The notes: generated by a model not told the origin, from the letters alone. DNA of 64,000 bases from Candidatus Woesebacteria bacterium (GCA_020060565.1 JAGVAE010000001.1:2671-66670); one strand, 5' to 3'. Shown: positions 50,761 through 64,000, counted from the stretch's first letter. Made by a program: numbers and translations.

Positions 50761-51736
50761 CATTACGGTTTCTGCCCCAGGCAAACTCATGCTTTTTGGA
50801 GAACACGCTGTTGTCTACGGTTTACCGTGCATAGTCACCGCGGTGGATCAAAGAATGTGGACAAATATTATTCGCACTCAGAAATTGACAATTAAGCTCG
50901 CGGCTCCCGAAGTCAAAATACCAAAGTTTGAAGCAGATATAAATATTCCATTGAAAAAAGTTCCCCAGGGAGCTAAGTTTGTGTTTGCGGCTGTCAAAAA
51001 TTTTTACAAGGAATATAAGGTTAGTTCTGGTTTGGATATTAAAACCCGAAGCGATTTTTCAAGTAGCTTCGGATTTGGTAGCTCATCGGCTGTTACTGTT
51101 TGTGTAGTCAAAGGTTTGGCGGAAATCTTTGGAATAAAAATTAGCAATAAAGCACTTTTTGATATTTGTTATAAAACAATCCTTGATGTTCAAGGTGTGG
51201 GGAGTGGTTTTGACATTGCAGCGGCCATTTGGGGAGGAACATTGTATTTTGTTGGGGGTGGTAAAAAAATTGCACAGATATCAAAAGAGAATTTACCCTT
51301 AACTGTTGGTTATACAGGAGTTAAAGCGGATACGACCACTCTGGTAAAAAAAGTGGCAGAATTAAAGAAGATAAAACCAAAAGTAGTAAATTCTATATTT
51401 AATTTGATTGTTTTAATTGTTGAAGATGCCAAAAAACTATTAAAAAAGGCTAATTGTGAAGAGTTGGGTAGACTTGCAAATTTAAATCAAGGACTTTTAG
51501 AAGCATTGGGTATTAGTACTTTTGAGCTTTCAAATTTGATATATGCATCAAGAGGAGCTGGGGCTTTTGGGGCCAAATTATCTGGGGCTGGTGGAGGGGA
51601 TTGTATGATTGCCTTTGCACCCCCAACTAAAACATCTAAAATCAAAAAAGCGATTGAGAAACATGGTGGTACATTTTTACCTGTCAAAACTGGAGCAGAG
51701 GGGGTTAGAGTTGAGAAAATAAATATTAAAAGATGA
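50750..51736 (+). CDS. GHMP kinase, second mevalonate/phosphomevalonate-kinase-like paralogue
   Basis: N-terminal APGKLMLFGEHAVVYG, GHMP motif GFGSSSAVTV, and a C-terminal KLSGAGGGDCMIA; 328 aa. Confidence 0.7.
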   Translation: MKNNITVSAPGKLMLFGEHAVVYGLPCIVTAVDQRMWTNIIRTQKLTIKLAAPEVKIPKFEADINIPLKKVPQGAKFVFAAVKNFYKEYKVSSGLDIKTRSDFSSSFGFGSSSAVTVCVVKGLAEIFGIKISNKALFDICYKTILDVQGVGSGFDIAAAIWGGTLYFVGGGKKIAQISKENLPLTVGYTGVKADTTTLVKKVAELKKIKPKVVNSIFNLIVLIVEDAKKLLKKANCEELGRLANLNQGLLEALGISTFELSNLIYASRGAGAFGAKLSGAGGGDCMIAFAPPTKTSKIKKAIEKHGGTFLPVKTGAEGVRVEKINIKR

Positions 51737-52698
51737 AAATAACAGTAAAAGCACCAGCAAATATTGCTTTTATAAAATATTGGGGTAAAAGAAATGAAAA
51801 GTTGAGATTGCCAGCCAATTCTTCTATTTCGATGAATTTATCAGGAGCATATACCACAACCTCTGTAGAATTTGATAGCAAGCTAAAATCAGATATCCTG
51901 ATATTAAATAATAAAGAAGTTGTTGGTAGAGAAATGGAGAGGGTATCTAAACACCTAGATTTAATTAGAAGTATTGCAAAAAGTAAGAATTATGCTCAAG
52001 TAAAAAGTACAAACAATTTCCCAAAGGGGGCTGGAATAGCTTCATCTGCTTCTGGATTTGCTGCATTGACAGTTGCTGCGGCTAAAGCAGTTAACTTGAA
52101 TCTCTCAGAAAAAAAACTTTCTATACTAGCACGTCTAGGATCGGGATCTGCTTGCCGCTCAATTCCTAACGGCTTTGTTGAATGGAAAATGGGAAATTCC
52201 AGCGAGAGTTCATACGCTCGATCACTTTTCGGATCAGAATATTGGAATATCTATGATTTGATTGCAGTAGTTGGTGAAAATAGTAAAAAAATTAGTTCTA
52301 CCGAAGGTCATGCCGTAGCTGAAAGTAGTCCATTTTACAAAACAAGACTTTCTGGTATGAAAGATAAAGTTGCAGAAATTAAATCTGCATTGAAAAGGAA
52401 AGATTTTACAAAATTTGGTGAAATCACAGAAGCTGAGGCTATTAACATGCATACAGTTATGATGACCTCTGTTCCACCACTCTATTATTTATTACCAGGA
52501 ACTTTGGATGTTATATCCCATGTTTTGGAGTTGAGGGAAAAGGGAATTGAATGTTACTTTACGATAGATGCTGGTCCTAATGTACATGTTATCTGTAAAG
52601 AGGAAAATAAACGTAAGATACAAAAAGTACTCTCGGATATTAAAAGTGTAAAGACAGTTTTAATAAACAGAGCTGCTTGTGGCGCGAGAGTTATATAA
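51733..52698 (+). CDS. mvaD: diphosphomevalonate decarboxylase
   Basis: APANIAFIKYWGKRNEKLRLPANSSISMNL and GIASSASGFAAL, the hallmark MDD N-terminus and GHMP motif; 321 aa. Confidence 0.8.
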   Translation: MKITVKAPANIAFIKYWGKRNEKLRLPANSSISMNLSGAYTTTSVEFDSKLKSDILILNNKEVVGREMERVSKHLDLIRSIAKSKNYAQVKSTNNFPKGAGIASSASGFAALTVAAAKAVNLNLSEKKLSILARLGSGSACRSIPNGFVEWKMGNSSESSYARSLFGSEYWNIYDLIAVVGENSKKISSTEGHAVAESSPFYKTRLSGMKDKVAEIKSALKRKDFTKFGEITEAEAINMHTVMMTSVPPLYYLLPGTLDVISHVLELREKGIECYFTIDAGPNVHVICKEENKRKIQKVLSDIKSVKTVLINRAACGARVI

Positions 52699-53210
52699 CC
52701 ATGAATAATATAGTTTTAGTTGATAAAAGGGATAGAGTAATTGGGTTAAAAGAAAAGTTTGAAGCTCACAAAATTCCAGTTCCTCTTCACCGTGCAATTT
52801 CAATAGTAATTTTTAACAAAGATAAAAGTCAGATACTTATAACAAAAAGAGCCAAAACCAAACCCACCTGGCCATCAGTTTGGTCTAACGCTGTTTGCAC
52901 CCATCCATACCCAGACGAATCTTATCTAAAGGCTTCAAAAAGACGTCTTTATGAAGAGTTGGGATTTAAAACATCACTTAAGGAGGCATTCAGTTTTATC
53001 TATCAAGCAAAAATGGCTGATGGAATTTGGGGGGAAAATGAACTTGACCATACTTTTGTTGGTAAATATGAAGGAAGAGTGATTCCCAATCCTTCTGAGG
53101 TTGATGGATATGAATGGATTAAGACAAGTGATTTAAAGAAGGATATTGAAAAGAATCCTAAAAAATACACTCCATGGTTTAAAATCATTATGGAAAAGCT
53201 TGAAGTTTAG
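52677..53210 (+). CDS. idi: isopentenyl-diphosphate delta-isomerase, type 1 (Nudix fold)
   Basis: HRAISIVIFN...TKRAKTKPTWPSVWSNAVCTHPYP..E and the ELGF motif match type 1 IDI; 177 aa. Confidence 0.8.
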   Translation: MWRESYITMNNIVLVDKRDRVIGLKEKFEAHKIPVPLHRAISIVIFNKDKSQILITKRAKTKPTWPSVWSNAVCTHPYPDESYLKASKRRLYEELGFKTSLKEAFSFIYQAKMADGIWGENELDHTFVGKYEGRVIPNPSEVDGYEWIKTSDLKKDIEKNPKKYTPWFKIIMEKLEV

Positions 53211-54088
53211 TATTTTCTTTCCAAAATAAAATCTATAAGTTCTATTAGTTGATTTCTGGCAGGCTCATCTTTCAGAAAATTTAACTTTGTGTCAAAAATT
53301 TCTTTTGCTTTTTGTTTCATTTCCTCTGCTAGTTCTTTTGCATATTTTATTCCTTTTGTGTTTGCAAGTGTTACCTTTCCTTCTTTTTTATCTTGTTCTA
53401 GATCAATTAGATCGTCAACCAGTTGGAAACAACGTCCAAGGTATAGTCCAAATTCAGTAATGGAATCTAATTGTGTTTTTGTAGAATTGGCAATCATTGC
53501 CCCCAATCTCATGGGTCCTGCAATAGAGTAATATGCACTTTTACTGTCAGCAATGAATAAGCATTCATCTTTTGTGATATTTTTCTTTCCCTTGTTTGTC
53601 CAAATTTGTTCCACTCCTTGGCCAAGAACTGTGCGCATTAGCATTGTGTAAAACTCCTCATTTATCTCTTTTGAGTTTTGATCATTAATTATTTTCCACA
53701 TAATAACGTGTAGGCAATCTCCTGCATTTATGGCTAATTCATGGCCGTAGATTTTATGAAGAGTTGTTTTTTCTCGTCTTTTCTCTGAATTGTCCTCTAT
53801 GTCATCATGAATCAATATCCATTCCTCTGAAAGCTGCATGGCTGCGGCAGTTTTGATTGCCTTTGTGACATCCGTCCCCATGGCTTGGGCAATAAGAAGA
53901 ACAAGTGTGGGGCGTAGATATTTACCTTTTCTTTCTGGATACTCCTTGTTTATCTTCCAATATAAATCAACATCCTTCTTATATTTTGAAGGGATTCTAA
54001 ATTGGGAAGGATAGATAGGATCTTTTAAGTATTTCTGAATCTCGGGCCAGACAAGTGTTTTGGTTTTCTCTAGGGTTTCTTGTACCAT
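53207..54088 (-). CDS. short-chain trans-polyprenyl diphosphate synthase (FPP/GGPP synthase family)
   Basis: First aspartate-rich motif LIHDDIEDNSEKRR and second FQLVDDLIDLEQD; 293 aa. Confidence 0.8.
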   Translation of the reverse strand: MVQETLEKTKTLVWPEIQKYLKDPIYPSQFRIPSKYKKDVDLYWKINKEYPERKGKYLRPTLVLLIAQAMGTDVTKAIKTAAAMQLSEEWILIHDDIEDNSEKRREKTTLHKIYGHELAINAGDCLHVIMWKIINDQNSKEINEEFYTMLMRTVLGQGVEQIWTNKGKKNITKDECLFIADSKSAYYSIAGPMRLGAMIANSTKTQLDSITEFGLYLGRCFQLVDDLIDLEQDKKEGKVTLANTKGIKYAKELAEEMKQKAKEIFDTKLNFLKDEPARNQLIELIDFILERKY

Positions 54089-54093
54089 GAGAT

Positions 54094-55365
54094 TTGTATT
54101 ATAATACTTTCTACATGGCAGACGAAATAAATCTTCCTAGTGGCACCGTTTTCCCAAATCACATAGCCATGATTCTTGATGGAAATAGACGCTGGGCAAG
54201 AGCTCGTGGACTTGAACCCTGGAAAGGGCATTTTTATGGCTACAAAGCAGTTAATGCATTGGCTCATGCAACCAGAAAGCTTGGAATTCATACTTTTACT
54301 GTTTGGGCATTTTCAACTGAGAATTGGGAGCGTCCTAAAAACGAGATTGATGAGATTATGAATATATTTAGACGAGCTCTCAAAGAAACTGAGAAGGAAT
54401 TCCACAAAGAGCATGTTGCTATGGTTCACTTGGGTCGCAAAGACAGACTCCCTGTTGATATTCAGGAGGAAGTTGCAAGGATTGAGGCTGAAACTGCCAA
54501 GTATGCCAATGAGCATATTTTTAATATGGCAATTGATTATGGTGGGAGGGATGAAATTGTCAGGGCTGTAAAGAAATTGGTCAAAGATAAAGTTCCAGTG
54601 AATGAGATTGACGAGAAAACATTTGAAAAATGTCTTGATACATATGGTCAACCATATCCTGACCCTGATTTGTTTATTAGAACCAGCGGGGAACAAAGAA
54701 CTTCAGGGTTTCTTCCTTGGCAAATGAGCTACACCGAGTTCTATTTTGAGCAGGAACACCTTCCTGACTTTACTCCTGGCAAACTAAAAACTGCAATTTT
54801 GGATTATTCAAGACGAAGGCGCAGATTTGGAGGAGATGATGTAGTGGAACATTTTAAATTTAATCCTGAACTTTTAGCAAGGCTTGAGATTAAGTGGTGG
54901 AGATTGGGTAAGATTCCTGAAGGGATGAGATTTATGGATTATACAATGAAGCATTTAAAGGAACAGTATGGGCTTTCTAAAGAATTGGCAAAAGATGCCG
55001 CCAAATTACTTTTTGAATCTTTGGCTGAAGAAAATGATTCCAAATTTGAAATGGCAAAGGTTAAAACTGTTAAATTCTATGAACTAATCAGGGATGAAAT
55101 TAAATTAGCATTTGAGCCTGAAATTGTTGCTTCATTGGAAGTTAGGATGCGAAAAGAAATGGGAGAGGGGGAAGATACAACTCGTGAGTATTTGGCAGAG
55201 GTATATAGAATCTCACTTTTCCAAGCTGCCAAAGCTGCACATCTTAAAGTTCTTGCTAATATTGAACGAAATAAAGCAGAAAAAGGACAAGGAGAGGAAC
55301 ATTGGGCCAAAGCTGAGGATTATCTTCAAAAGTATTATCATGCCCTAAAGGAAAGAGTTGCTTAA
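54094..55365 (+). CDS. uppS: undecaprenyl-diphosphate synthase (cis-prenyltransferase) with a ~170-aa C-terminal all-alpha extension
   Basis: HIAMILDGNRRWA, TVWAFSTENWERP, IDYGGRDEI and FIRTSGEQRTSGFLPWQ are canonical UPPS motifs. The N-terminal ~250 aa is UppS-like; the remaining ~170 aa is charged/helical with no match I recognise. Confidence 0.8.
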   Translation: MYYNTFYMADEINLPSGTVFPNHIAMILDGNRRWARARGLEPWKGHFYGYKAVNALAHATRKLGIHTFTVWAFSTENWERPKNEIDEIMNIFRRALKETEKEFHKEHVAMVHLGRKDRLPVDIQEEVARIEAETAKYANEHIFNMAIDYGGRDEIVRAVKKLVKDKVPVNEIDEKTFEKCLDTYGQPYPDPDLFIRTSGEQRTSGFLPWQMSYTEFYFEQEHLPDFTPGKLKTAILDYSRRRRRFGGDDVVEHFKFNPELLARLEIKWWRLGKIPEGMRFMDYTMKHLKEQYGLSKELAKDAAKLLFESLAEENDSKFEMAKVKTVKFYELIRDEIKLAFEPEIVASLEVRMRKEMGEGEDTTREYLAEVYRISLFQAAKAAHLKVLANIERNKAEKGQGEEHWAKAEDYLQKYYHALKERVA

Positions 55366-55786: not shown

Positions 55787-57280
55787 ATGTCGAAAGCCTT
55801 TAGAAACAGGGTAATTCTAAATATTCTGGATAAATATAAAGATATATGGGCATTGGGGTATATGGGAGCTGTTGCTAATTGGGATCTGGAGACTTATATG
55901 CCAGTTAGTGGTGCGAAAGTACGAGGAGAGGCATTTGGGAGACTATCTACTATTAGTCAAAATCTTTTTTTGAAGAAGGATTTTGTTTCATTGATACATA
56001 AAGGTGAGAAAGAAAAGAATCTAACTGATGAAGAGAAGGGAGTTATTAGGGCTTTAATACGTTCACTTAAATACTACACTAGGCTGCCGAGTGATTTCTT
56101 AGAGAAATACGAAAAGACTACAACGGAAGCCACTGTTATCTGGAGAGAAGCGAGAGACAGTAATAACTTTAAGCTATTTGAACCCTATTTATCTAAAATT
56201 TTTAATTTAAATAAAGCTAAGGCAGAATATCTTGGCTACAAAGATTCTCCATACGATGCACTCATGGATCAATATGAAGAAAATCTTTCAACCCGTGAGG
56301 TTGAACTGTTTTTTGGGGAGATTAGGGAACCGCTTAAAGAATTACTCGTAAAAATACAAAAATCACCTAAGTACTTTAAAGAACACAAATTAGAAAAGGC
56401 CTTATATAATGAAGAAAAACTAAAAGACCTAAATTTTAAAATATTGGAGACGTTTTGGGCAGATTTCAGCCGATTAAGGCTGGACATCTCAAGTCATCCT
56501 TTCACAACCTCCTTTTCTAATACGGACACCCGTATAACTACATGGTATCACAAGAGCGATTTTGCAAGAAGTTTACTAGGCACTATTCATGAGTTTGGTC
56601 ATGCTTTATATGACTTGCAATGTAAAGATGAACTTGAAATGACACCAATTGTAGGTGGAACTTCACTGGTTATTCATGAAAGCCAAAGTAGGCTTTGGGA
56701 AAACTTCGTAGGTCGTAGTGAGGGATTTATAAGAAAGTATAAAAAAGATTTTGACTCTGTTTTGTCAGTTAAACAGTCTGTCAGTTTGCCAGTTGATCAG
56801 TATTTACAATATTTTAATAAAGTAAGACCTAGTCTGCTACGTGTCGAGGCGGATGAAGTCACTTATCACTTCCATATAATGTTAAGGTTTGAGATTGAAA
56901 AAGGACTAATTGAAGGAAGATTGAAGGTAAGGGATGTAAGGGAGGTTTGGAATAGCAAGATGAAGGAATATTTGGGTGTTATACCTAAGAAAGATTCGGA
57001 TGGGGTACTTCAGGATATTCATTGGAGTGGGGGAACTGTTGGGTACTTTCCAACTTACAGTTTAGGTACGTTTCTGAGCGCTCAGTGGGAGCAAAAAATG
57101 GGTTTAGAGTTTAGAATTCAGAATTTAGAGTTTGTGAAGAATTGGCTCGAAGAACACATTCACAAATATGGCTCAACATATACACTTGACGATCTACTCA
57201 AGAAAAATCATATGAAATTTGATCCAAGCGTTAACTTAAAATATTTGGAGAAAAAATATTCAAAAATATATGGATTTTGA
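55787..57280 (+). CDS. M32-family carboxypeptidase (Taq-like)
   Basis: HEFGHALYD zinc motif plus DIHWSGGTVGYFPTYSLG and the other M32 signature blocks; 497 aa. Confidence 0.85.
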   Translation: MSKAFRNRVILNILDKYKDIWALGYMGAVANWDLETYMPVSGAKVRGEAFGRLSTISQNLFLKKDFVSLIHKGEKEKNLTDEEKGVIRALIRSLKYYTRLPSDFLEKYEKTTTEATVIWREARDSNNFKLFEPYLSKIFNLNKAKAEYLGYKDSPYDALMDQYEENLSTREVELFFGEIREPLKELLVKIQKSPKYFKEHKLEKALYNEEKLKDLNFKILETFWADFSRLRLDISSHPFTTSFSNTDTRITTWYHKSDFARSLLGTIHEFGHALYDLQCKDELEMTPIVGGTSLVIHESQSRLWENFVGRSEGFIRKYKKDFDSVLSVKQSVSLPVDQYLQYFNKVRPSLLRVEADEVTYHFHIMLRFEIEKGLIEGRLKVRDVREVWNSKMKEYLGVIPKKDSDGVLQDIHWSGGTVGYFPTYSLGTFLSAQWEQKMGLEFRIQNLEFVKNWLEEHIHKYGSTYTLDDLLKKNHMKFDPSVNLKYLEKKYSKIYGF

Positions 57281-57672
57281 TATATAATATGAATATGACA
57301 GAATCTTTTAACCCAAGCCCTGAAGATATTGAAGTGTACGGAAATTTGGGGAGGATGTTGGACAAATTTCGCCGTACCCCCGGAAGCCGCATAAATGATA
57401 CGTGGTATGAGTATAGAAAAGGAGCCATAAAAAATTTTGGTGAAGATGCGATTGCTACTTTAATCCCCCAAAAAATCAATGTTTCATCGACTTTGATTAC
57501 GAGAGCCTTGAATAATCTTGCCAGAAATGGGGTAAAAACGACGCAAGACTTGGTTTGTATTGACTTAGACGATTTTATGAGGGATGAGCCCAAAGACTTC
57601 GGGTCAAAATCATTAGAGTTTGCAAAGGCTCTAAAGGCAGTTTCCCAGATTGAATTAAAAAGAAAATTTTAA
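57277..57672 (+). CDS. hypothetical protein with an HhH-like motif reminiscent of RNA polymerase alpha-CTD
   Basis: INVSSTLITRALNNLARNGVKTTQDLV resembles the alpha-CTD HhH. The ORF overlaps the previous stop (ATGA). A weak call. Confidence 0.35.
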   Translation: MIYNMNMTESFNPSPEDIEVYGNLGRMLDKFRRTPGSRINDTWYEYRKGAIKNFGEDAIATLIPQKINVSSTLITRALNNLARNGVKTTQDLVCIDLDDFMRDEPKDFGSKSLEFAKALKAVSQIELKRKF

Positions 57673-57797: not shown

Positions 57798-58016
57798 ATG
57801 GAACCAACTACAAAAAAGAAAGTCAGATTAGAAGCTTTACCCGATTTACTCACTGTTCGTGAAGTTGCAGATATACTTCGAGTTTCACCCTTAACCATTA
57901 AAAGATGGGGTAAACGAGGCAAGCTTCCTGCAATACGTATAAACTCTCGAGGTGATAGACGTTACAAGAAAGAAGCTGTTCTTTGGCTTCTCGGCATGCA
58001 GGCAAAGGAAGAATAA
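57798..58016 (+). CDS. small helix-turn-helix DNA-binding protein (MerR/excisionase-type HTH_17)
   Basis: LLTVREVADILRVSPLTIKRWGKRGKLPAIRI; 72 aa. Confidence 0.6.
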   Translation: MEPTTKKKVRLEALPDLLTVREVADILRVSPLTIKRWGKRGKLPAIRINSRGDRRYKKEAVLWLLGMQAKEE

Positions 58017-58018
58017 CT

Positions 58019-59758
58019 TCAGTCTAACTTAATCTGTAAATTCCAAAAGTGGGAATATAAACTATTTTTATCTTTGAGTAAGGATTCATGAGTTCCTATT
58101 TCTTTTATTTTGCCATACTCCATGACAACTATTTTATCTGCTCTCATAATAGTTGAGAGTCTGTGGGCAACAATGATGGTGGTTTTTCCTGCTCTAGCTT
58201 TCCAGAAGGCATCCTGAATTAATTTTTCAGACTCGGAATCTAAATGACTTGTTGCTTCATCAAATACAACAATATCTGGATCACTTAGTATCATGCGTGC
58301 TATGGCAAGTCTTTGTTTTTGTCCTCCAGAGAGCTTAACACCGCGTTCACCAACTTCAGTATTATATTTGTCTTTAAGATCTTCTATAAACTCATCTATA
58401 TTAGCAAGATTTGAAGCTATTTTTATCTCACTTAGTTTTGGTCTATTTTTTCCATAGCCGATGTTGTAGGCAATTGTGTTATTAAATAGTATTGGTTCTT
58501 GGGGAACTACTCCAATAAAACTTCTTAAAGTGCTTTTTGTAAATTTTGTGATATTCACTCCATCAATGGTGATTTCACCACTGTCCAAATCATAAAATCT
58601 CATTAATAGCTTGGTTAAGGTGGTTTTTCCACTTCCACTTCTACCTACAAGCGCTATTGATTCACCGGGCTTGATATTAAGATTTATACCGTTTATGGCA
58701 TTTTTGGATCTGCCGTTATATGTAAAGCGAATATTGTTAAATTTAATCTCACCTTTTACATGGGACATTTTTATTGGATTTTCTGGATCGACGATTTCTA
58801 TTTTTTCATCAAGAAATCCAAAATACTTTTCAATATCAGCGTAGTTTTTAGCAATTCCACGAATTCCATAGACCAGATTCCATATTTTTGGAATAAACAT
58901 TCCAATGAATCCTATGACCAAAACAAACTCCCCAATACTCAATCTATGATTAACCGTCAGATATAAAGCCACAAAAAAAGTAAGAAATGTACTGATACTT
59001 GTTATAATTCCCAATACAACATCAATTAACCTAAATGAGTTGGCATAGCCCCAAAGTGTTTTAATCCATCTGATAAATGCGACGGAAAGACGTTTTTCTT
59101 CCCATTTTTCCTTGGCAAAAAGCTTTACAGTCTCGTAGTTGATCATGTTGTCAGCGATAATTCCCGAGACATAATCTTCTTCTTTGTTAAAAATATTTCT
59201 TTTTTGGATGTTGAACCTAATCAAAAACTTAATGGATATGAGTATTATGACTAAAGGAACAACCATAGTTACAGCAATTAGAAGGTTAATCTTTGTAAAA
59301 AAGAAAACCATAACTATTGTGGTTATTAAAATGTTTATAATATTGAAGTGAATTGTATGAAACATATCAAAGAATGATCCATCACCTCTTTTAAAGGCTG
59401 AAATAAGCCCACCGGTACTTTTACCTGAGTGGAAGACGAAATCAAGGTCTTGAACGTGCTTAAAGATTTCTTGTCTGGCATCTCGTGATGAGTTAAGAAG
59501 AATTACATCCCCAACCCACTCACCTAGTATTGAGACAGTTAAACCCAAAACACTAGCTCCCGTATATATAAGTAGTATATTTATGAGCCTTCCATAATCC
59601 AGGGATGGAATAGCATCTACAAACAGTTTTAAAAAGTAGGGAGATATGCTTTGTAGAATTCCAGCCACAACAATAGAAACAATAAACAGTATGTAAACTG
59701 CCTTTTTACGGTAAACAAAATGAAAAAAAGTTTTTAGTACTTTAAGCATAAAAAACAC
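58019..59758 (-). CDS. ABC transporter, fused permease/ATPase exporter (MsbA-like)
   Basis: Six TM helices in the N-terminal half; Walker A GRSGSGKTT, signature LSGGQKQRLAIAR, Walker B IVVFDEATSHLD. The ORF-track start is a GTG; an ATG follows three codons later. Confidence 0.85.
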   Translation of the reverse strand: MFFMLKVLKTFFHFVYRKKAVYILFIVSIVVAGILQSISPYFLKLFVDAIPSLDYGRLINILLIYTGASVLGLTVSILGEWVGDVILLNSSRDARQEIFKHVQDLDFVFHSGKSTGGLISAFKRGDGSFFDMFHTIHFNIINILITTIVMVFFFTKINLLIAVTMVVPLVIILISIKFLIRFNIQKRNIFNKEEDYVSGIIADNMINYETVKLFAKEKWEEKRLSVAFIRWIKTLWGYANSFRLIDVVLGIITSISTFLTFFVALYLTVNHRLSIGEFVLVIGFIGMFIPKIWNLVYGIRGIAKNYADIEKYFGFLDEKIEIVDPENPIKMSHVKGEIKFNNIRFTYNGRSKNAINGINLNIKPGESIALVGRSGSGKTTLTKLLMRFYDLDSGEITIDGVNITKFTKSTLRSFIGVVPQEPILFNNTIAYNIGYGKNRPKLSEIKIASNLANIDEFIEDLKDKYNTEVGERGVKLSGGQKQRLAIARMILSDPDIVVFDEATSHLDSESEKLIQDAFWKARAGKTTIIVAHRLSTIMRADKIVVMEYGKIKEIGTHESLLKDKNSLYSHFWNLQIKLD

Positions 59759-59829
59759 CCCCGAGGGGGAAAAGTGTGCGGCGAGCCTTAATTGTATGAT
59801 ATAATACCAGTACTTTCAACTAAATTTCC

Positions 59830-60711
59830 ATGCGAAAACTAATTTTTCTATTGTTATTTGTGGTTGTAGGCTTGGTTTTGCCCGAAAGGGCCATTGCTGT
59901 TGTTCCTACAATTAGTCCATCCCCTGAGGCTTCAGCCAGTGCAGTCCCTATTGCTATACCTACTTCTGTACCAGACATAACTCAAAAAACAGCAGAAACC
60001 TTGGGTCCATTGGAGCAAATATTAGAATCCCAAATTCTGGGTCCCGTTTGGCCAACAAACCCTATTAAGTACGCAATCCGTGGAGCAGTTGGCTCGGGAG
60101 TTCCTGCCAATACAATAGTTCTTCTTCTACTTCTTCCCATAATGACCTTTATTATTGCATTCTCACGCAATGTTGTTGGAATTAGGGGGTTTGGAATTTT
60201 TCTTCCCGCTGCTTTATCTGTTGTTTTAGTTGCAACTGGACCAATTGTAGGAATTGGGCTTTTCTTACTAATTGTTGCAGTTTCAACACTCCTGCGTCTT
60301 ATTTTAAGAACACTAAAGATCAAACTTCAATATTTACCCAGGATGGCATTTATCCTTTGGGGTGTGGTTGTTGGAGTATTGGGAGCTTTATTCTTGGCTC
60401 CATATCTTAAATTTTCACAATTAAATAATGTTTCGATTTTTGCTGTCTTGATACTGATATTATTATCTGAAGATTTTACCAGAGTCCAACTTGGTAAAAG
60501 TGCTAAGACAGCTATAAATCTTACATTTGAAACATTAGTTCTTTCCCTAATTTCTTTCTTCTTTTTGACTCTTAAACCTCTTCAGGAATTTGTTCTTCTT
60601 AATCCTGAGGCTAGTCTTATTGGAGTTGCCTTACTTGATTTGATATTGGGTAAATATGCTGGACTTCGGGTAATGGAGTTCTATCGTTTTAGAAAAATTA
60701 TTAATCAATAA
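59830..60711 (+). CDS. polytopic membrane protein (about 7 TM helices) with signal peptide and Pro-rich N-terminal linker; first gene of the ATP-grasp cluster
   Basis: A signal/TM, a PT-rich stretch, then about seven hydrophobic helices. Its stop abuts the next start (TAA-ATG). Confidence 0.5.
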   Translation: MRKLIFLLLFVVVGLVLPERAIAVVPTISPSPEASASAVPIAIPTSVPDITQKTAETLGPLEQILESQILGPVWPTNPIKYAIRGAVGSGVPANTIVLLLLLPIMTFIIAFSRNVVGIRGFGIFLPAALSVVLVATGPIVGIGLFLLIVAVSTLLRLILRTLKIKLQYLPRMAFILWGVVVGVLGALFLAPYLKFSQLNNVSIFAVLILILLSEDFTRVQLGKSAKTAINLTFETLVLSLISFFFLTLKPLQEFVLLNPEASLIGVALLDLILGKYAGLRVMEFYRFRKIINQ

Positions 60712-61998
60712 ATGAAGCTTTCTTCAATTCTCGGTTTAAATGCCCGTTCTCAACTCTTTGCTTATCGTTACAATACTCGCAAGGGTAAAAAGATTGCTGA
60801 CAGTAAGATCCAGACTGCAGGAGCATTAAGACGTGCGGGGGTTGCCCACCCCAAGATTTTTAAAAAATTTAGGGATCCTAGGGAGGTAACAAATTTTAAT
60901 TGGGATAGCCTTCCTGATAAGTTTGCCCTTAAACCAAGCCGAGGATTTGGGGGAGAGGGAATAATTGTAGTTAAACAAAGGCTCAATGGTGGCGGTTGGC
61001 TGACAACACAAAAAGAGAAAGTTAATATTTCCGATCTTAAACTTCACACATTGGATATTTTAGAAGGTGCTTATTCAATGGGGGATGAGCCTGATGTTGC
61101 GTTTACCCAAGAATATATTGGACGTCACCCCGCATTTCGCCGTTGGGCGTTTAGGGGCACTCCTGATATACGCATTATTATTTTTAATAAAGTTCCCGTT
61201 ATGGCGATGCTAAGACTTCCAACAAAAGAGTCTGGGGGAAGAGCAAATTTACATCAAGGAGCGATTGGGGTAGGAATAGATATTGCAACTGGAATAACCA
61301 CAAAGGCCATTTGGCATGGGGAGCAAATTGTATTCAAACCAGGGACAGTAAAGAAACTTAGAGGAATAAAGATACCCAATTGGAACAACATTCTTGAAAC
61401 TGCAGTAAATGCTCAAATAGCCTCACATTTGGGCTATGTTGGAATAGACATAGTACTTCATCCAGAAAAAGGACCCATGGTTCTTGAAATGAATGCTCAA
61501 CCAGGGCTTCAGATCCAGTTGGCTAATATGGAGGGGCTAAGAAGAAGGCTGGAAAGAATTGATGATTTAGAAATACGAAATGCTGAGCATGGTGTTAAAA
61601 TAGCCAAGGCTCTTTTTGCTGGAAGGTTTGCAGATAGAGTTAGGGCTGAGGAGGGGGTAAAAACCATTGGTGTCTGGGAAGAAATAAAAGTACTATCTGG
61701 AGATGGAGTAAAAGCTGCCGTAAAAGCCAAGATTGACACTGGAGCTTGGAAAACATCTATCGATAAAGATTTAGCGGATAAACTAAATCTTGAAAAGAAA
61801 AGTAACATTCTTTGGGAAAAGGAATATAAAAGTTCCCTGGGAAGCGAGCGAAGAAAGGTTATTGGCCTGACCATTTTTATAGCAGGAAGAAGGATAACAA
61901 CTATTGCCAATGTAGCCAATCGGTCAAACCTTAGGTCCCAAGTGATTATAGGTAGGAGAGACCTCGAAGGCTTTTTGGTTAAGACAAACAAAGAATAA
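60712..61998 (+). CDS. ATP-grasp ligase (alpha-L-glutamate-ligase-like) fused to a C-terminal retropepsin-like aspartic protease domain
   Basis: ATP-grasp core (FALKPSRGFGGEGIIVV...VGIDIVLHPEKGPMVLEMNAQPG). The C-terminal ~110 aa carries VKAKIDTGAWKTSI, the D-T-G-A catalytic signature of retropepsin-like domains. Confidence 0.65.
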   Translation: MKLSSILGLNARSQLFAYRYNTRKGKKIADSKIQTAGALRRAGVAHPKIFKKFRDPREVTNFNWDSLPDKFALKPSRGFGGEGIIVVKQRLNGGGWLTTQKEKVNISDLKLHTLDILEGAYSMGDEPDVAFTQEYIGRHPAFRRWAFRGTPDIRIIIFNKVPVMAMLRLPTKESGGRANLHQGAIGVGIDIATGITTKAIWHGEQIVFKPGTVKKLRGIKIPNWNNILETAVNAQIASHLGYVGIDIVLHPEKGPMVLEMNAQPGLQIQLANMEGLRRRLERIDDLEIRNAEHGVKIAKALFAGRFADRVRAEEGVKTIGVWEEIKVLSGDGVKAAVKAKIDTGAWKTSIDKDLADKLNLEKKSNILWEKEYKSSLGSERRKVIGLTIFIAGRRITTIANVANRSNLRSQVIIGRRDLEGFLVKTNKE

Positions 61999-62020
61999 GC
62001 TTTATAATAGGACACCCACT

Positions 62021-62929
62021 ATGAAAAAAATATTAATACTAGTAGATAAAATAGGACGCAAAAAGGAGCTTTTTGCTGAAGAAATTGCCAAAAGAGCTCC
62101 CGAAACAACCATAACTCTGGCCAGATTTTCGGATCTTTATTTTGAAATTGATCAAGAAAATATATATGTAGAAATAAATAAAATACCAATTGTGGAATAT
62201 GACTTAGTGTATTTCCGAAGAGCGGGTAATGACTTCTCGGTTCTTGCTGCAACTCTTGCTTTTAGTCTAAAACATCTTGGAGTCAAGTTCATGGATACCA
62301 CCTGGGGAGATATTGGGTCTTTGGGAAGCAAATTTACGTCGTTGGTAAAATTGGCTAGTATTAACCTTCCAATATTTCATTCAATTTATGTCTGGAAGAC
62401 TCAAATTTCTGATAATAAAGAAAGAATAGTCAAAAATTTAAAACTACCCCTAATTGCAAAAGAGCTTTCAACCCAAAGAGGAATGGGGGTTCATATGATT
62501 AGCTCTTTGGAAGATTTCGACAAGCTTCCAATGACTGACAAAGGTGGTAGAGATAATCAATATCTTTTTCAGGAATTTGCAGAGTTAGATGAGGAATATA
62601 GACTTTTAGTTTTAGGTAATAGGGTGGGGGTTTGGGAGAAAAAGATTGTTACGGTTGAGGGGGAGTTTCGTCACAATTTATCACTCGGAGCAGATGAAGA
62701 ATATCTAAAGATTGCCGATTTACCTGCCGATCTTGAAAAAATTACAGTTGATAGTGCCAGGATTCTTAATCTTCAAATTGCAGGAGTAGATGTTGCAAAG
62801 GCTAAATCAGATGGGAAGTATAGAATGATTGAGGTAAACCGTGGACCAGGGTTTACATATGATACAAATATCTCTCCTGAAATGAATGAACTTGCAAAGT
62901 TTTTAAAGAAAGAAGCAGAGGATAAATGA
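62021..62929 (+). CDS. RimK-like ATP-grasp ligase
   Basis: LPLIAKELSTQRGMGVHMI, LLVLGNRVGVWEKKIV and QIAGVDVA..GKYRMIEVNRGPGF: the ATP-grasp fold in RimK/GshB-like order; 302 aa. Confidence 0.65.
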   Translation: MKKILILVDKIGRKKELFAEEIAKRAPETTITLARFSDLYFEIDQENIYVEINKIPIVEYDLVYFRRAGNDFSVLAATLAFSLKHLGVKFMDTTWGDIGSLGSKFTSLVKLASINLPIFHSIYVWKTQISDNKERIVKNLKLPLIAKELSTQRGMGVHMISSLEDFDKLPMTDKGGRDNQYLFQEFAELDEEYRLLVLGNRVGVWEKKIVTVEGEFRHNLSLGADEEYLKIADLPADLEKITVDSARILNLQIAGVDVAKAKSDGKYRMIEVNRGPGFTYDTNISPEMNELAKFLKKEAEDK

Positions 62930-63876
62930 TCAAAAAAAGTGTTGGTATGGCCTTCTCCAGAAAACTTACTGGGAGTGATCCTCTAGGGCATATTGGTGTT
63001 AAAAAGCCCGTATATATGAGATTTTTTGAGTTATGCAAAAAAGAGGGATGGAACTTATATGTTTTAACTAGAAAGACGTACAAAGGAAATGGAATCTTTG
63101 AAGGAGGGTGGAAGTATGATGAAAAAAAATTTGTTTTGGATAGGTCTTCTATAAAAATTGATTTGGTATATGACAGAAGTGCTGGTGTGAAGTTTCCTCC
63201 AAAGAATGACACAAGTACTATTTGGGTAAATGAACATTCCTTTAAAACTTTAGCGTGGGACAAGTGGGCTGCCTATCAAGGAATCGGAAAATATATGCCA
63301 CAAACACTGTTGGTTGAAGATGAAAGTATGCTATCCAAAATTTTACCCAAAATAAATACTGACTGGGTAGTACTTAAGCCGTTTAACGGATTAAAGGGGA
63401 TTGGTATTTTTATTGGTCCAAAGGCTGATGCCGAAGATTTTACTTTTAATAAAAAATACAGGCCCTACATTGCTCAAGAATTTGTTGATACATCGGGTGG
63501 AATTGAGGGAGTCACGTCAGGGAGACACGATTTAAGAATTGTTATTATAAACGGAAAAGTAGTGTGGAGTCATATAAGAACTCCAGTTGGTGAGAGCTTT
63601 TTAGCAAATGCTGCACAGGGTGGAAACTTAGTGGAAATTGATTATTCAAAAGTACCACTATCCGTTAAAGGTGTTGTGGAAAATGTATCAGAATTATTTT
63701 CTGAGAAGTATGACAGTCCTATCTATAGTTTAGATTTTGGAATTGATAGAGAAGGGGAGCCAAGAATATTTGAGATTAATGATCAAATAGGTTTCCCTCA
63801 GTGGGACATGAAGAATAGGGACAAATTCTTGTTTTCACTGATTGAGAACTTCAAAGGTAAGCTTTCTGCCCACTAA
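62926..63876 (+). CDS. RimK-like ATP-grasp ligase (second paralogue)
   Basis: WVVLKPFNGLKGIGIFI, DLRIVIINGKVVW and YSLDFGIDREGEPRIFEINDQIGFP; 316 aa. Its start overlaps the previous stop (ATGA). Confidence 0.65.
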   Translation: MIKKSVGMAFSRKLTGSDPLGHIGVKKPVYMRFFELCKKEGWNLYVLTRKTYKGNGIFEGGWKYDEKKFVLDRSSIKIDLVYDRSAGVKFPPKNDTSTIWVNEHSFKTLAWDKWAAYQGIGKYMPQTLLVEDESMLSKILPKINTDWVVLKPFNGLKGIGIFIGPKADAEDFTFNKKYRPYIAQEFVDTSGGIEGVTSGRHDLRIVIINGKVVWSHIRTPVGESFLANAAQGGNLVEIDYSKVPLSVKGVVENVSELFSEKYDSPIYSLDFGIDREGEPRIFEINDQIGFPQWDMKNRDKFLFSLIENFKGKLSAH

Positions 63877-64000
63877 CTATTTATTGGTATTTTGGCCATT
63901 AACTACATATATAGAACAATTAAAATATCCAGCAAAGCGTGAAAACATTAGCCTTTTCACAATCCCAACATAATACGAAGCAATTTTTGTATACAATTAT

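What the first reader, a model, noticed from the sequence alone, without database searches (positions are those of the whole stretch)
58019..63876. Cluster of three ATP-grasp ligases (one fused to a retropepsin-like DTGA protease), a polytopic membrane protein and a divergent ABC exporter
Four co-directional, translationally coupled genes encode a polytopic membrane protein, an ATP-grasp ligase with a C-terminal retropepsin-like domain (KIDTGAWKT), and two RimK-like ATP-grasp paralogues. An MsbA-type exporter lies divergently upstream. RimK-type enzymes add amino-acid tails to proteins or build small poly-amino-acid products. I recall comparative-genomic work associating ATP-grasp ligases with retropepsin-like peptidases and 7TM proteins as ligation/processing systems of unknown product. 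Three ligases together suggest stepwise synthesis of a short peptide or modification of a membrane-associated target, a function that would be uncharacterised in this lineage.
Basis: partly seen in the sequence, partly recalled or inferred. Interest (0 to 1): 0.7.

Follow-up and report, generated by a model that had tools for sequence, protein, structure and literature searches.

The report
Membrane-coupled peptide ligase–protease module in CPR bacteria
This is a real, strongly conserved gene cluster from an uncultured Patescibacteria (CPR) genome: a membrane protein, an amino-acid ligase fused to its own retrovirus-type protease, and two extra ligases, forming a compact variant of the recently described Pseudomonas "Rlo" stress-tolerance system whose chemical product is still unknown.

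Summary
All five ORFs exist at the stated coordinates. The three ligases pass Pfam ATP-grasp thresholds and keep their catalytic residues. KIDTGAWKT lies in a retropepsin fold that matches RloA (9g58).

The constant core is two genes: 7TM_transglut followed by the ATPgrasp_ST–retropepsin fusion. They are adjacent in 80 of 80 informative loci, and in other organisms they are covalently fused. Both evolve about as slowly as ribosomal proteins L10 and L1. AG2 and AG3 belong to a variable tailoring set of one to four ligases, sometimes with a methyltransferase, a C45 enzyme or DUF3541. The ABC exporter is only a lineage-specific neighbour (13 of 40 loci).

The closest known systems are Pseudomonas RloABC and RimB–RimK. 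This version differs from RloABC in three ways: the protease is cytoplasmic and fused C-terminally to the ligase, the membrane protein has no transglutaminase ectodomain, and extra ligases are present. The residues that bind poly-glutamate in RloA are conserved here.

My best reading is a ligase docked at the membrane that builds acidic, probably oligo-glutamate, chains, with a built-in trimming protease. The product is inferred, not shown.

One new pattern emerged. Relatives that carry a MATCAP carboxypeptidase mostly have a dead retropepsin motif, whereas this type keeps an intact one. I classify the finding as a new variant of a known kind, of moderate interest.

The parts
59830..60711 (+). 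Core gene 1: a 7TM_transglut-family membrane protein (293 aa). It has a signal peptide (residues 1-23), a variable Pro/Ser/Thr/Ala-rich linker, a conserved short ecto-segment (residues ~49-95), seven TM helices (~96-276) and a basic cytoplasmic tail (277-293). It has no transglutaminase domain.
60712..61611 (+). Core gene 2, N-terminal part (residues 1-~300): a cytoplasmic ATP-grasp amino-acid ligase of the ATPgrasp_ST / TIGR02291 (RloC-like) clade. It has no signal peptide or TM segment.
   Evidence: PF14397 scores 1.7e-64. TIGR02291 scores 264 bits, below its cut-off of 314. K74, D246, E259 and N261 are invariant in 80/80 unique homologues. Foldseek finds ArgX/LysX 3vpb at 2.7e-9, plus RimK 5zct and CphA1. 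Fusions of 7TM directly to ATPgrasp_ST exist elsewhere: P0250, P0257 and P0276.
61660..61986 (+). Core gene 2, C-terminal part (residues ~317-425): a retropepsin-like (RloA/RimB/Zn_protease PF05618 family) aspartic peptidase domain. The catalytic motif D342-T-G-A345 is at 61735-61746 and the GRxD motif at residues 414-417.
   Evidence: The window protein itself gives only weak sequence hits: PF05618 2e-4, PF13975 1.6e-3, RloA2/A3 ~3e-4. PF05618 is precomputed for many homologues. A profile of the domain hits 9g59 at 5e-5 and 9g58 at 4e-3. Foldseek gives 9g58 RloA at 4.1e-7 and 2pma at 5.7e-7. The equivalents of RloA's K46, D48, R114 and R137 are K340, D342, R381 and R404, all conserved. Net charge of the domain is +7 to +14.
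62021..62929 (+). Accessory ligase AG2: a RimK-like ATP-grasp (302 aa) that is variable between relatives.
   Evidence: PF08443 scores 1.6e-16 and TIGR00768 scores 65 bits, below its cut-off of 143. The PDB sequence match is to RimK 7qyr at 1.4e-6, with the D...E-x-N motif aligned. Mean identity among relatives is 44%.
62926..63876 (+). Accessory ligase AG3: a divergent ATP-grasp (316 aa) of the RimK/GshB/ATPgrasp_ST clade.
   Evidence: PF14397 scores 39.5 bits, PF08443 35.5, PF02955 32.5 and PF14398 30.5, all above their cut-offs. There is no PDB sequence match. D...E-I-N is present in the sequence. It is found in only a subset of loci. Mean identity is 60%.
58019..59758 (-). Divergent ABC half-transporter of the exporter type (579 aa). 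It is a lineage-specific neighbour, not a core component.
   Evidence: It has ABC_membrane plus ABC_tran. The MsbA equivalog TIGR02203 scores 371 bits, below its cut-off of 602. It lies within 4.5 kb upstream in only 13/40 close loci and 0/8 distant loci.
57798..58016 (+). Small HTH_17/MerR-type DNA-binding protein (72 aa), a recurrent upstream neighbour and possible regulator. Whether it belongs to the system is uncertain.
   Evidence: PF12728 scores 9.6e-11. It scores 129 bits against the L001 orthologue. It is within 4.5 kb upstream in 24/40 close loci.

Best explanation
This is the Microgenomatia/Woesebacteria-type (CPR) variant of the 7TM_transglut + ATPgrasp_ST + retropepsin amidoligase/peptidase module. 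The only studied example of that module is Pseudomonas rloABC.

**Proposed mechanism**
1. The 7TM protein has its N-terminus outside and its C-terminus inside the cell.
2. The cytoplasmic ATP-grasp ligase docks on its cytoplasmic face. The two genes are abutting here and covalently fused in other organisms.
3. Using ATP, the ligase adds amino acids one at a time to a carboxylate. The product is most likely an alpha-linked oligo- or poly-glutamate-like acidic chain. It could be a free chain or be built on an acceptor that is not yet known.
4. The C-terminal retropepsin domain, active as a homodimer, cuts such acidic chains. It therefore limits chain length or releases the product, as RimB does for RimK.
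5. AG2 and AG3 are lineage-variable tailoring ligases that alter or extend the product.
6. The 7TM protein either passes the product to the cell surface or couples ligase activity to the state of the envelope.

**Shown here:** domain identities, intact catalytic residues, conservation of RloA's poly-Glu-binding residues, obligatory 7TM–ligase linkage, cytoplasmic location of the protease, and variability of the accessory genes.

**Inferred:** the identity of the amino acid, the acceptor, any export, and dimerisation.
For: **Domains and catalytic residues:**

**7TM–ligase coupling**
- The two genes are adjacent in 67/67 close and 13/13 distant loci.
- They are also adjacent in Peregrinibacteria-type loci.
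- Natural 7TM-to-ATPgrasp_ST fusions exist: P0250, P0257 and P0276.

**Ligase type**
- The ligase fold is closest to enzymes that extend C-terminal carboxylates: ArgX/LysX and RimK.
- The RANLHQGA loop is invariant in the fusion alignment; I match it from memory to RimK's RSNLHRGG loop.

**Protease specificity**
- RloA's poly-E-coordinating K46, R114 and R137 map to K340, R381 and R404 with the same 23-residue Arg–Arg spacing.
- R381 and R404 are conserved in 69/69 close homologues; position 340 is K in 56 and R in 13.
- The domain is strongly basic.

**Precedents**
- RimB trims poly-Glu and stimulates RimK, and an active RimB–RimK hybrid exists (PMC11957791).
- Deleting rloB or rloC suppresses the ΔrloA1-3 defects. 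So the ligase and the 7TM protein together make what the protease removes (PMC12239564).

**An eraser peptidase seems to be required.** Relatives with a MATCAP carboxypeptidase have a degenerate retropepsin motif, while those without it keep DTGA.

**Conservation.** The core evolves at ribosomal-protein-like rates.
Against: - No product, acceptor or substrate gene was identified.
- The amino-acid specificity of ATPgrasp_ST/TIGR02291 enzymes has never been determined, even for RloC.
- In Pseudomonas the protease is periplasmic, whereas here it is cytoplasmic. The logic of the pathway may therefore differ.
- The 7TM fold has no structural analogue. Export through it is speculation.
- The basic charge of the protease domain is weak evidence in a Lys-rich, low-GC proteome.
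- The window protein's own Pfam protease hits are below the gathering thresholds. The assignment rests on the profile, fold and motif evidence.
- The ligase's active-site loop (residues 175-217) is modelled with low confidence.
Confidence: 0.55

Rival explanations
1. Envelope-glycopolymer or peptidoglycan-precursor tailoring. The ligases amidate carboxylates of lipid-linked sugars or stem peptides with amino acids. The 7TM protein and/or the ABC exporter flips the decorated precursor. The retropepsin edits the peptide and has no particular poly-Glu specificity.
For: - Pfam names PF14397 'sugar-transfer associated'.
- UPP synthase and polyprenyl synthase lie upstream in the window and in many loci.
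- A related locus carries a DegT sugar aminotransferase next to four ATP-grasp genes.
- The accessory set is hypervariable (methyltransferase, C45, DUF3541, 1-4 ligases), as is typical of surface structures.
- Ectodomains on the 7TM protein vary between lineages: transglutaminase, PKD or a short segment.
- An MsbA/PglK-like exporter is adjacent in this window.
Against: - No glycosyltransferase sits inside the conserved core.
- ABC linkage is only 13/40.
- UPPS is separated from the cluster by unrelated genes and is absent from the distant loci.
- The poly-Glu-binding residues of RloA are conserved.
Confidence: 0.2
2. Signal transduction. The 7TM protein is an envelope or osmotic sensor whose variable ectodomain senses the outside and switches the docked ligase/protease on or off. 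The product stays in the cytoplasm, for example as tails on cytoplasmic proteins.
For: - The architecture is receptor-like: a variable ectodomain, a highly conserved TM core with many invariant charged residues, and a conserved cytoplasmic tail.
- The protease is cytoplasmic here.
- The Rlo phenotypes concern osmotic and envelope stress.
Against: - In Pseudomonas the protease acts in the periplasm, yet is epistatically downstream of the cytoplasmic ligase. That implies transfer of material across the membrane.
- No output domain or target was identified.
Confidence: 0.13
3. A RimK/RimB-type ribosomal-protein tail modification system, suggested by the conserved position next to rplL-rplJ-rplA-rplK.
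For: - The cluster is convergent to rplL within 6.5 kb in 35/37 close loci.
- The retropepsin is cytoplasmic, like RimB.
- AG2 is RimK-like.
- Some relatives carry a canonical Rimk_N+RimK gene.
Against: - The 7TM partner is obligatory and sometimes covalently fused.
- The adjacency to rplL is convergent, so the genes are not co-transcribed. It is absent from the distant group (0/5).
- L7/L12 and L10 C-termini are ordinary.
- All three ligases score far below the RimK-family cut-off.
- No acidic-tailed ORF is present in the window.
Confidence: 0.08
4. A RiPP/graspetide-type cluster in which the ATP-grasp enzymes macrocyclise a ribosomal precursor peptide, the protease removes the leader, and the ABC transporter exports the product.
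For: Foldseek lists the graspetide ligase PsnB among the ATP-grasp matches. A protease and an ABC exporter are nearby.
Against: - No conserved small precursor ORF lies in or beside the cluster.
- The best family matches are RimK/LysX-type extenders.
- The ABC gene lacks a C39 peptidase domain and is not consistently linked.
- Ribosomal-protein-like conservation is atypical for RiPP clusters.
Confidence: 0.03

Closest known systems
Pseudomonas RloABC (retropepsin-like osmotic stress tolerance operon; Lormand et al., mBio 2025, PMC12239564)
   Same: It has the same three functional parts: a 7TM_transglut membrane protein, an ATPgrasp_ST/TIGR02291-type cytoplasmic ligase and an RloA-family retropepsin. 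The protease fold matches (9g58), as do the catalytic DTG and the basic residues shown to bind poly-Glu. The membrane-protein and ligase genes are adjacent.
   Different: - The protease here is fused to the C-terminus of the ligase and has no signal peptide, so it is cytoplasmic. RloA is secreted.
- The 7TM protein lacks the inactive transglutaminase ectodomain.
- One to four extra ATP-grasp genes follow the fusion.
- The host is a CPR bacterium. The paper reports that 96% of RloB hits are from Proteobacteria.
- TIGR02291 and the RloB/RloA NCBIfam models all score below their cut-offs.
RimK–RimB, and the RimBK hybrid of Desulfotalea psychrophila (Little et al., JBC 2025, PMC11957791)
   Same: A cytoplasmic ATP-grasp ligase is paired with, or fused to, a cytoplasmic retropepsin that trims poly-alpha-glutamate. 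The hybrid shows that a ligase–retropepsin fusion can be proteolytically active.
   Different: - Domain order is reversed. RimBK has the protease at the N-terminus, and here it is at the C-terminus.
- The ligase belongs to the ATPgrasp_ST clade, not RimK proper (TIGR00768 scores 42 bits against a cut-off of 143).
- The 7TM partner is obligatory here and absent from Rim.
- No RpsF link is evident.
7TM_transglut / ATPgrasp_ST / TIGR02421 'QEGLA' (MATCAP, DUF1704) neighbourhoods predicted by comparative genomics (Iyer, Abhiman, Burroughs & Aravind 2009, Mol Biosyst 5:1636; cited in PMC12096838, not readable here)
   Same: The same Pfam families and the same idea of a ligase plus peptidases acting on a peptide tail or metabolite. 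I found these versions in other CPR lineages, both as separate genes and as ~800-aa triple fusions.
   Different: The window's type has no MATCAP and no transglutaminase. It keeps an intact retropepsin motif, whereas MATCAP-linked versions mostly have a degenerate one.
Tubulin tyrosination and glutamylation cycle (TTL/TTLL ATP-grasp writers; MATCAP/CCP erasers). This is an analogy only.
   Same: An ATP-grasp 'writer' that adds amino acids to a C-terminal carboxylate is paired with dedicated peptidase 'erasers'. The MATCAP family is shared with the CPR relatives.
   Different: There is no evidence that a protein C-terminus is the acceptor here. The bacterial module is coupled to a membrane protein.

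Membership tests
ATP-grasp superfamily (all three ligases) | Pfam ATP-grasp family hit above the gathering threshold | tested here: met
   The fusion scores 218 bits on PF14397. AG2 scores 61 bits on PF08443. AG3 scores 39.5 on PF14397, 35.5 on PF08443 and 32.5 on PF02955.
ATP-grasp superfamily (all three ligases) | ATP-binding Lys and Mg-binding D…E-x-N residues present | tested here: met
   In the fusion, K74, D246, E259 and N261 are invariant in 80 unique homologues. AG2's D/E/N align to RimK 7qyr. AG3 has SLDFG…FEIN, read directly from the sequence.
Rlo system (RloA/RloB/RloC) | RloC-type ligase (TIGR02291 equivalog) | tested here: inconclusive
   TIGR02291 is the best NCBIfam hit (1.4e-78, 264 bits) but is below its cut-off of 314. 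This places the ligase in the same clade but does not demonstrate orthology.
Rlo system (RloA/RloB/RloC) | RloB: inactive transglutaminase ectodomain fused to the 7TM domain | tested here: not met
   The 7TM domain is present (PF14402, 82.6 bits) but there is no Transglut_core. NF052267 scores 59 bits against a cut-off of 900 and matches only its positions 312-506. All 120 listed CPR homologues carry PF14402 only.
Rlo system (RloA/RloB/RloC) | RloA: a separate, secreted retropepsin with a signal peptide | tested here: not met
   The domain is the C-terminal part of the cytoplasmic ligase, and the N-terminus MKLSSILGLNARSQ… is not hydrophobic. The fold and the catalytic and binding residues do match RloA.
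Rlo system (RloA/RloB/RloC) | Conserved operonic linkage of the membrane protein with the ligase | tested here: met
   67/67 close and 13/13 distant loci.
Rlo system (RloA/RloB/RloC) | Role in hypo-osmotic tolerance, with suppression by loss of the ligase or the 7TM protein | not testable with these tools
   This is a genetic phenotype in Pseudomonas. The organism here is uncultured.
Retropepsin-like peptidases (clan AA; PF05618 'Zn_protease'/RimB-like) | D-T/S-G catalytic motif and a downstream G-R-x-D/N motif | tested here: met
   DTGAW is invariant, and G414, R415, D417 and L418 of the IIGRRDL motif are invariant. D-(T/S)-G-A is present in 69/69 unique close homologues.
Retropepsin-like peptidases (clan AA; PF05618 'Zn_protease'/RimB-like) | Retropepsin beta-barrel fold | tested here: met
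   The AF2 domain has pLDDT ~85-91. Foldseek gives 9g58 at 4.1e-7 (TMt 0.53) and 2pma at 5.7e-7. The domain profile hits 9g59, 9g58, 2pma, ApRick and Ddi1.
Retropepsin-like peptidases (clan AA; PF05618 'Zn_protease'/RimB-like) | Pfam family score above the gathering threshold | tested here: inconclusive
   The window protein scores 21.7 bits on PF05618, below the cut-off of 27. Many close homologues carry a precomputed PF05618 hit.
Retropepsin-like peptidases (clan AA; PF05618 'Zn_protease'/RimB-like) | Homodimer forming a two-Asp active site | not testable with these tools
   No multimer prediction was available.
RimK–RimB ribosomal S6 glutamylation system | RimK-family ligase (TIGR00768 / PRK10446) | tested here: not met
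   TIGR00768 scores 42 bits for the fusion, 65 for AG2 and 45.5 for AG3, against a cut-off of 143.
RimK–RimB ribosomal S6 glutamylation system | Substrate RpsF with a C-terminal Glu-Glu | not tested
   rpsF was not identified in the window. No ORF in the window has an acidic C-terminus.
MsbA-type lipid exporter (the ABC gene) | Equivalog-level match to MsbA | tested here: not met
   TIGR02203 scores 371 bits against a cut-off of 602. The gene is a generic ABC_membrane + ABC_tran exporter.

The most novel reading that the evidence does not exclude
The 7TM protein plus the ligase–protease fusion could be a near-universal, housekeeping-grade machine of Microgenomatia-type CPR bacteria. It would build, trim and deliver lineage-variable peptide decorations, possibly polyanionic chains, to the cell surface. 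That would be a non-ribosomal 'peptide-tail code' for the envelope, written by ATP-grasp ligases and erased by retropepsin or MATCAP peptidases, and potentially relevant to how these episymbionts manage osmotic integrity or attach to hosts. The 7TM_transglut domain would then represent a new class of exporter or transducer with no structural analogue.
Probability: 0.2. Interest if true: 0.8.

Novelty: new variant of a known kind. Interest (0 to 1): 0.5.

Why it matters
The Rlo-type module affects osmotic tolerance, cell shape, biofilm formation and antibiotic sensitivity in Pseudomonas, yet its chemical product is unknown.

The CPR version is the most compact form seen here. Ligase and protease sit in one polypeptide, and the membrane partner has been stripped of its ectodomain. 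It is as conserved as ribosomal proteins across a large uncultured lineage with minimal genomes. That argues for a fundamental envelope-related role.

It also offers a simpler two-protein system for biochemical reconstitution. The reciprocal pattern of intact retropepsin versus MATCAP carboxypeptidase suggests that an 'eraser' activity is an obligatory part of the module.

Tried and rejected
- **Source contig.** An exact look-up of the window's fusion protein, and of its 100%-identical cluster representative P0001, found no record. The genes downstream of 63876 were therefore inferred from relatives, where rplL lies convergent.
- **Iyer et al. 2009.** PMC3268129 is not held. It is cited only through another paper's reference list.
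- **Promoter and terminator scan of 59650-64000.** It found 18 promoter-like sites against 11.5 ± 3.1 expected, which is not informative.
- **L7/L12 or L10 as substrates.** Their C-termini are canonical, so this was rejected. No acidic-tailed ORF is present in the window.
- **AG3 against PDB sequences.** No hit.
- **ABC exporter as part of the system.** Rejected as a core component, at 13/40.
- **Graspetide/RiPP reading.** Rejected because no precursor gene was found.
- **Literature on this cluster in CPR.** The search found nothing specific.
- **Caveat on the counts.** The loci were not fully de-duplicated, because a few contigs recur in different samples. Locus counts therefore overstate independence. 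The residue tables use unique sequences only.

Full report
**1. Observation**

- an ABC exporter on the minus strand, 58019-59758;
- a 293-aa membrane protein, 59830-60711;
- a 428-aa ATP-grasp protein, 60712-61998;
- a 302-aa ATP-grasp protein, 62021-62929;
- a 316-aa ATP-grasp protein, 62926-63876.

The last four are co-directional on the plus strand. The junctions are tight. The 7TM stop TAA is followed at once by the next ATG, there is a 22-nt spacer before AG2, and AG2 and AG3 share an ATGA overlap.

Pfam and NCBIfam confirm every domain call:
- 7TM_transglut, 82.6 bits.
- ATPgrasp_ST, 218 bits, for the fusion. Its best NCBIfam match is TIGR02291 'alpha-L-glutamate ligase-like', at 264 bits against a cut-off of 314.
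- RimK, 61 bits, for AG2.
- Several ATP-grasp families above threshold for AG3.
- ABC_membrane plus ABC_tran for the exporter. MsbA is only a sub-threshold best match.

**2. The DTGA domain is a retropepsin**

The window protein's own sequence hits to protease models are weak: PF05618 at 2e-4, gag-asp_proteas at 1.6e-3, and RloA2/RloA3 at about 3e-4. Three further lines of evidence settle the question.
- In 42 homologues the motifs K-x-D-T-G-A-W and the GRxD core of I-I-G-R-R-D-L (G414, R415, D417, L418) are invariant.
- An AlphaFold2 model built on that alignment gives a confident beta-rich domain at residues ~317-425, with pLDDT ~85-91.
- Foldseek matches that domain to the crystal structure of P. 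fluorescens RloA (9g58, E 4.1e-7) and to the DUF785/Zn_protease structure 2pma. The N-terminal part matches ArgX/LysX, RimK, PsnB and CphA1.

A profile of the C-terminal domain alone also hits 9g59, 9g58, 2pma, ApRick and Ddi1.

Lormand et al. showed that K46, R114 and R137 of RloA coordinate poly-glutamate around the catalytic D48. In the HMMER alignment to 9g58, the chain has D28, R94 and R117. These have the same 66- and 89-residue spacings. They align to D342, R381 and R404 of the window protein, and K340 sits two residues before D342, as K46 does before D48. Position 340 is K in 56 and R in 13 of the 69 unique close homologues, and R381 and R404 are conserved in all 69. The domain carries a net charge of +7 to +14. 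An acidic substrate is therefore the most economical inference.

**3. Source and relatives**

The fusion protein has thousands of homologues. The best 120 are 70-100% identical, 425-446 aa long, and named from Woesebacteria, Microgenomates, Woykebacteria and 'Patescibacteria group'. The organism is therefore a CPR bacterium of the Microgenomatia type. Public records call these proteins only 'alpha-L-glutamate ligase-like protein', 'glutathione synthase/RimK-type ligase-like ATP-grasp enzyme' and 'hypothetical protein'.

**4. What is conserved**

I analysed 97 loci: 17 from look-ups and GTDB representative genomes, and 80 from metagenomes. ORFs were called and scored against the window's proteins.

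| Feature | Close group (fusion ≥ 500 bits, n = 83) | Distant group (320-460 bits, n = 14) |
|---|---|---|
| 7TM gene directly upstream | 67/67 informative loci | 13/13 |
| Another ATP-grasp gene immediately downstream | 61/67 | none in 6 of 7 |
| Number of extra ligases | 1 (16 loci), 2 (29), 3 (3), 4 (1) | mostly 0 |
| ABC exporter within 4.5 kb upstream | 13/40 | 0/8 |
| HTH_17 gene within 4.5 kb upstream | 24/40 | not scored |
| rplL convergent within 6.5 kb downstream | 35/37 | 0/5 |

In the close group the extra ligases vary in type: AG2-like, AG3-like, canonical Rimk_N+RimK, or a 613-aa tandem double ligase. Other accessory genes also appear, namely SAM methyltransferases, a C45 acyltransferase/hydrolase and DUF3541. 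The rplL that lies downstream is followed by rplJ, rplA, rplK and nusG.

Across 13 non-redundant loci, the fusion shows 71.5% mean identity and the 7TM protein 69.6%. That is as conserved as L10 (68.9%) and L1 (66.4%). AG2 (44%) and AG3 (60%) diverge much faster.

The system is therefore a two-gene constant core with a variable tailoring periphery. The ABC exporter and the ribosomal-protein neighbourhood are lineage-specific synteny.

**5. Evidence from fusions**

An exhaustive search of 50%-identity representatives found 1,896 relatives. Several multi-domain forms are informative:
- 7TM_transglut fused to the N-terminus of ATPgrasp_ST (P0250, P0257).
- The same with a transglutaminase core in front (P0276).
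- ATPgrasp_ST plus a retropepsin-like domain, followed by a MATCAP/DUF1704 carboxypeptidase (many proteins of ~800 aa), by YdjC, or by a second ATP-grasp.

The 7TM-to-ligase fusions show that the membrane protein's C-terminus is cytoplasmic and that the two proteins work in physical contact. This agrees with the topology I read from the sequence: a signal peptide, positive-inside loops and a basic C-terminal tail.

The ~800-aa triple fusions come from Peregrinibacteria and other Patescibacteria. They sit directly after a 7TM_transglut gene that carries a PKD ectodomain.

**6. A reciprocal pattern**

The distant metagenomic group has a fuller module: a separate secreted transglutaminase-core protein, a small holin-like 4-TM protein, the 7TM protein, the fusion, and a separate MATCAP/TIGR02421-like carboxypeptidase.

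In all 11 such loci the retropepsin motif is degenerate (NTG, HTG or DTK). Every locus without MATCAP keeps K/R-x-DTGA. The triple fusions are likewise mostly degenerate, with motifs such as DTS, DPT and NTT. The ATP-grasp catalytic residues stay intact throughout.

One working 'eraser' peptidase therefore seems to be required. It is the retropepsin in the window's type and the carboxypeptidase elsewhere. As far as I could find, this pattern has not been described.

**7. Comparison with known systems**

The closest system is Pseudomonas rloABC (PMC12239564). It comprises a secreted retropepsin RloA that cleaves runs of 8 or more Glu, an inactive-transglutaminase 7TM protein RloB, and a cytoplasmic ATP-grasp RloC. 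Loss of rloB or rloC suppresses the defects of the ΔrloA1-3 mutant, which implies that the ligase and the membrane protein generate what the protease removes.

The second precedent is RimK–RimB (PMC11957791). RimB trims poly-Glu tails and stimulates poly-alpha-glutamate synthesis by RimK. A natural RimB–RimK hybrid from Desulfotalea is proteolytically active.

The window's system differs from both:
- The protease is at the C-terminus of an RloC-clade ligase, the reverse order and a different ligase clade from RimBK.
- The protease is cytoplasmic, unlike RloA.
- The membrane partner has no transglutaminase domain.
- Extra ligases are attached.
- All the NCBIfam Rlo and RimK models score below their cut-offs.

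I therefore file it as a new variant of a known kind, not as a member of the Rlo or Rim families in the strict sense.

**8. Mechanism**

My best-supported reading (confidence about 0.55) is as follows.
- The ligase is docked at the membrane and extends an acidic, probably oligo-glutamate, chain.
- The fused retropepsin, acting as a dimer, trims or releases that chain.
- AG2 and AG3 act as variable tailoring ligases.
- The 7TM protein either exports the product or couples synthesis to the state of the envelope.

The domain identities, residue conservation, linkage and topology are shown. The amino acid, the acceptor, export and dimerisation are inferred.

The rivals are tailoring of lipid-linked envelope precursors (0.2), a sensor-controlled cytoplasmic modification (0.13), ribosomal-protein modification suggested by the rplL neighbourhood (0.08), and a RiPP cluster (0.03).

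The 7TM fold has no informative analogue among solved structures, so its activity remains the main unknown.

**9. Verdict**

The finding is a real and highly conserved CPR variant of a module that has been recognised but remains biochemically unsolved. It is of moderate interest.

Noticed in passing
L028, L030, L044, L049, L056-L059, L073, L094 (distant loci); P0133-P0231 (~800-aa proteins): Relatives that encode a MATCAP/DUF1704 carboxypeptidase, either separately or fused, almost always have a degenerate retropepsin motif (NTG, HTG, DTK, DTS or DPT). The window's type lacks MATCAP and keeps DTGA. This suggests that one functional 'eraser' peptidase is required.
   Followed up: yes
window 63877-64000 and beyond; L001-L097: In 35 of 37 close loci the cluster ends convergent to rplL-rplJ-rplA-rplK-nusG. 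So rpoB/rpoC do not follow rplL in these genomes. The adjacency is absent from the distant group, so it looks like lineage synteny rather than a functional link.
   Followed up: partly
window 55787-57280 (+): An M32 (Taq-type) carboxypeptidase (PF02074, 465 bits) lies 2.5 kb upstream of the cluster. It recurs upstream in L005, L011, L016 and L078. It is probably unrelated, but it is a carboxypeptidase near a ligase system that uses a different carboxypeptidase family elsewhere.
   Followed up: partly
window 54094-55365 (+): The undecaprenyl-diphosphate synthase is 423 aa, but its Prenyltransf domain covers only residues 27-246. The remaining ~175-aa C-terminal extension matches no Pfam family. 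The orthologue in L001 has a similar total length (417 aa).
   Followed up: no
window 51733-54088: Mevalonate-pathway genes sit just upstream: diphosphomevalonate decarboxylase, a NUDIX-type protein that is probably IPP isomerase, and a polyprenyl synthase. That is notable for a small CPR genome.
   Followed up: no
window 57277-57672 (+): A 131-aa ORF overlaps the M32 stop codon. It has a marginal match to the RNA polymerase alpha C-terminal domain (PF03118, 23.4 bits against a cut-off of 23.8). No homologue was found in the other loci.
   Followed up: no
L098 4470-5999; L099 4398-5990 and 8361-14376: In Peregrinibacteria-type loci the 7TM_transglut protein carries a PKD ectodomain instead of a transglutaminase. 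L099 follows the triple fusion with a DegT aminotransferase, four more ATP-grasp genes and DUF3541. This hints at a sugar-linked peptide product.
   Followed up: partly
L009, L010, L011: Three GTDB representative MAGs titled 'uncultured Gammaproteobacteria bacterium' carry a typical Woesebacteria-like locus with 69-72% identity to the fusion and the same synteny. The record titles are probably wrong.
   Followed up: no
window 59830-59859: JGI's gene call for the 7TM protein starts 10 codons later (283 aa) than NCBI's (293 aa). The conserved MRK start in 35 homologues supports the longer form.
   Followed up: yes
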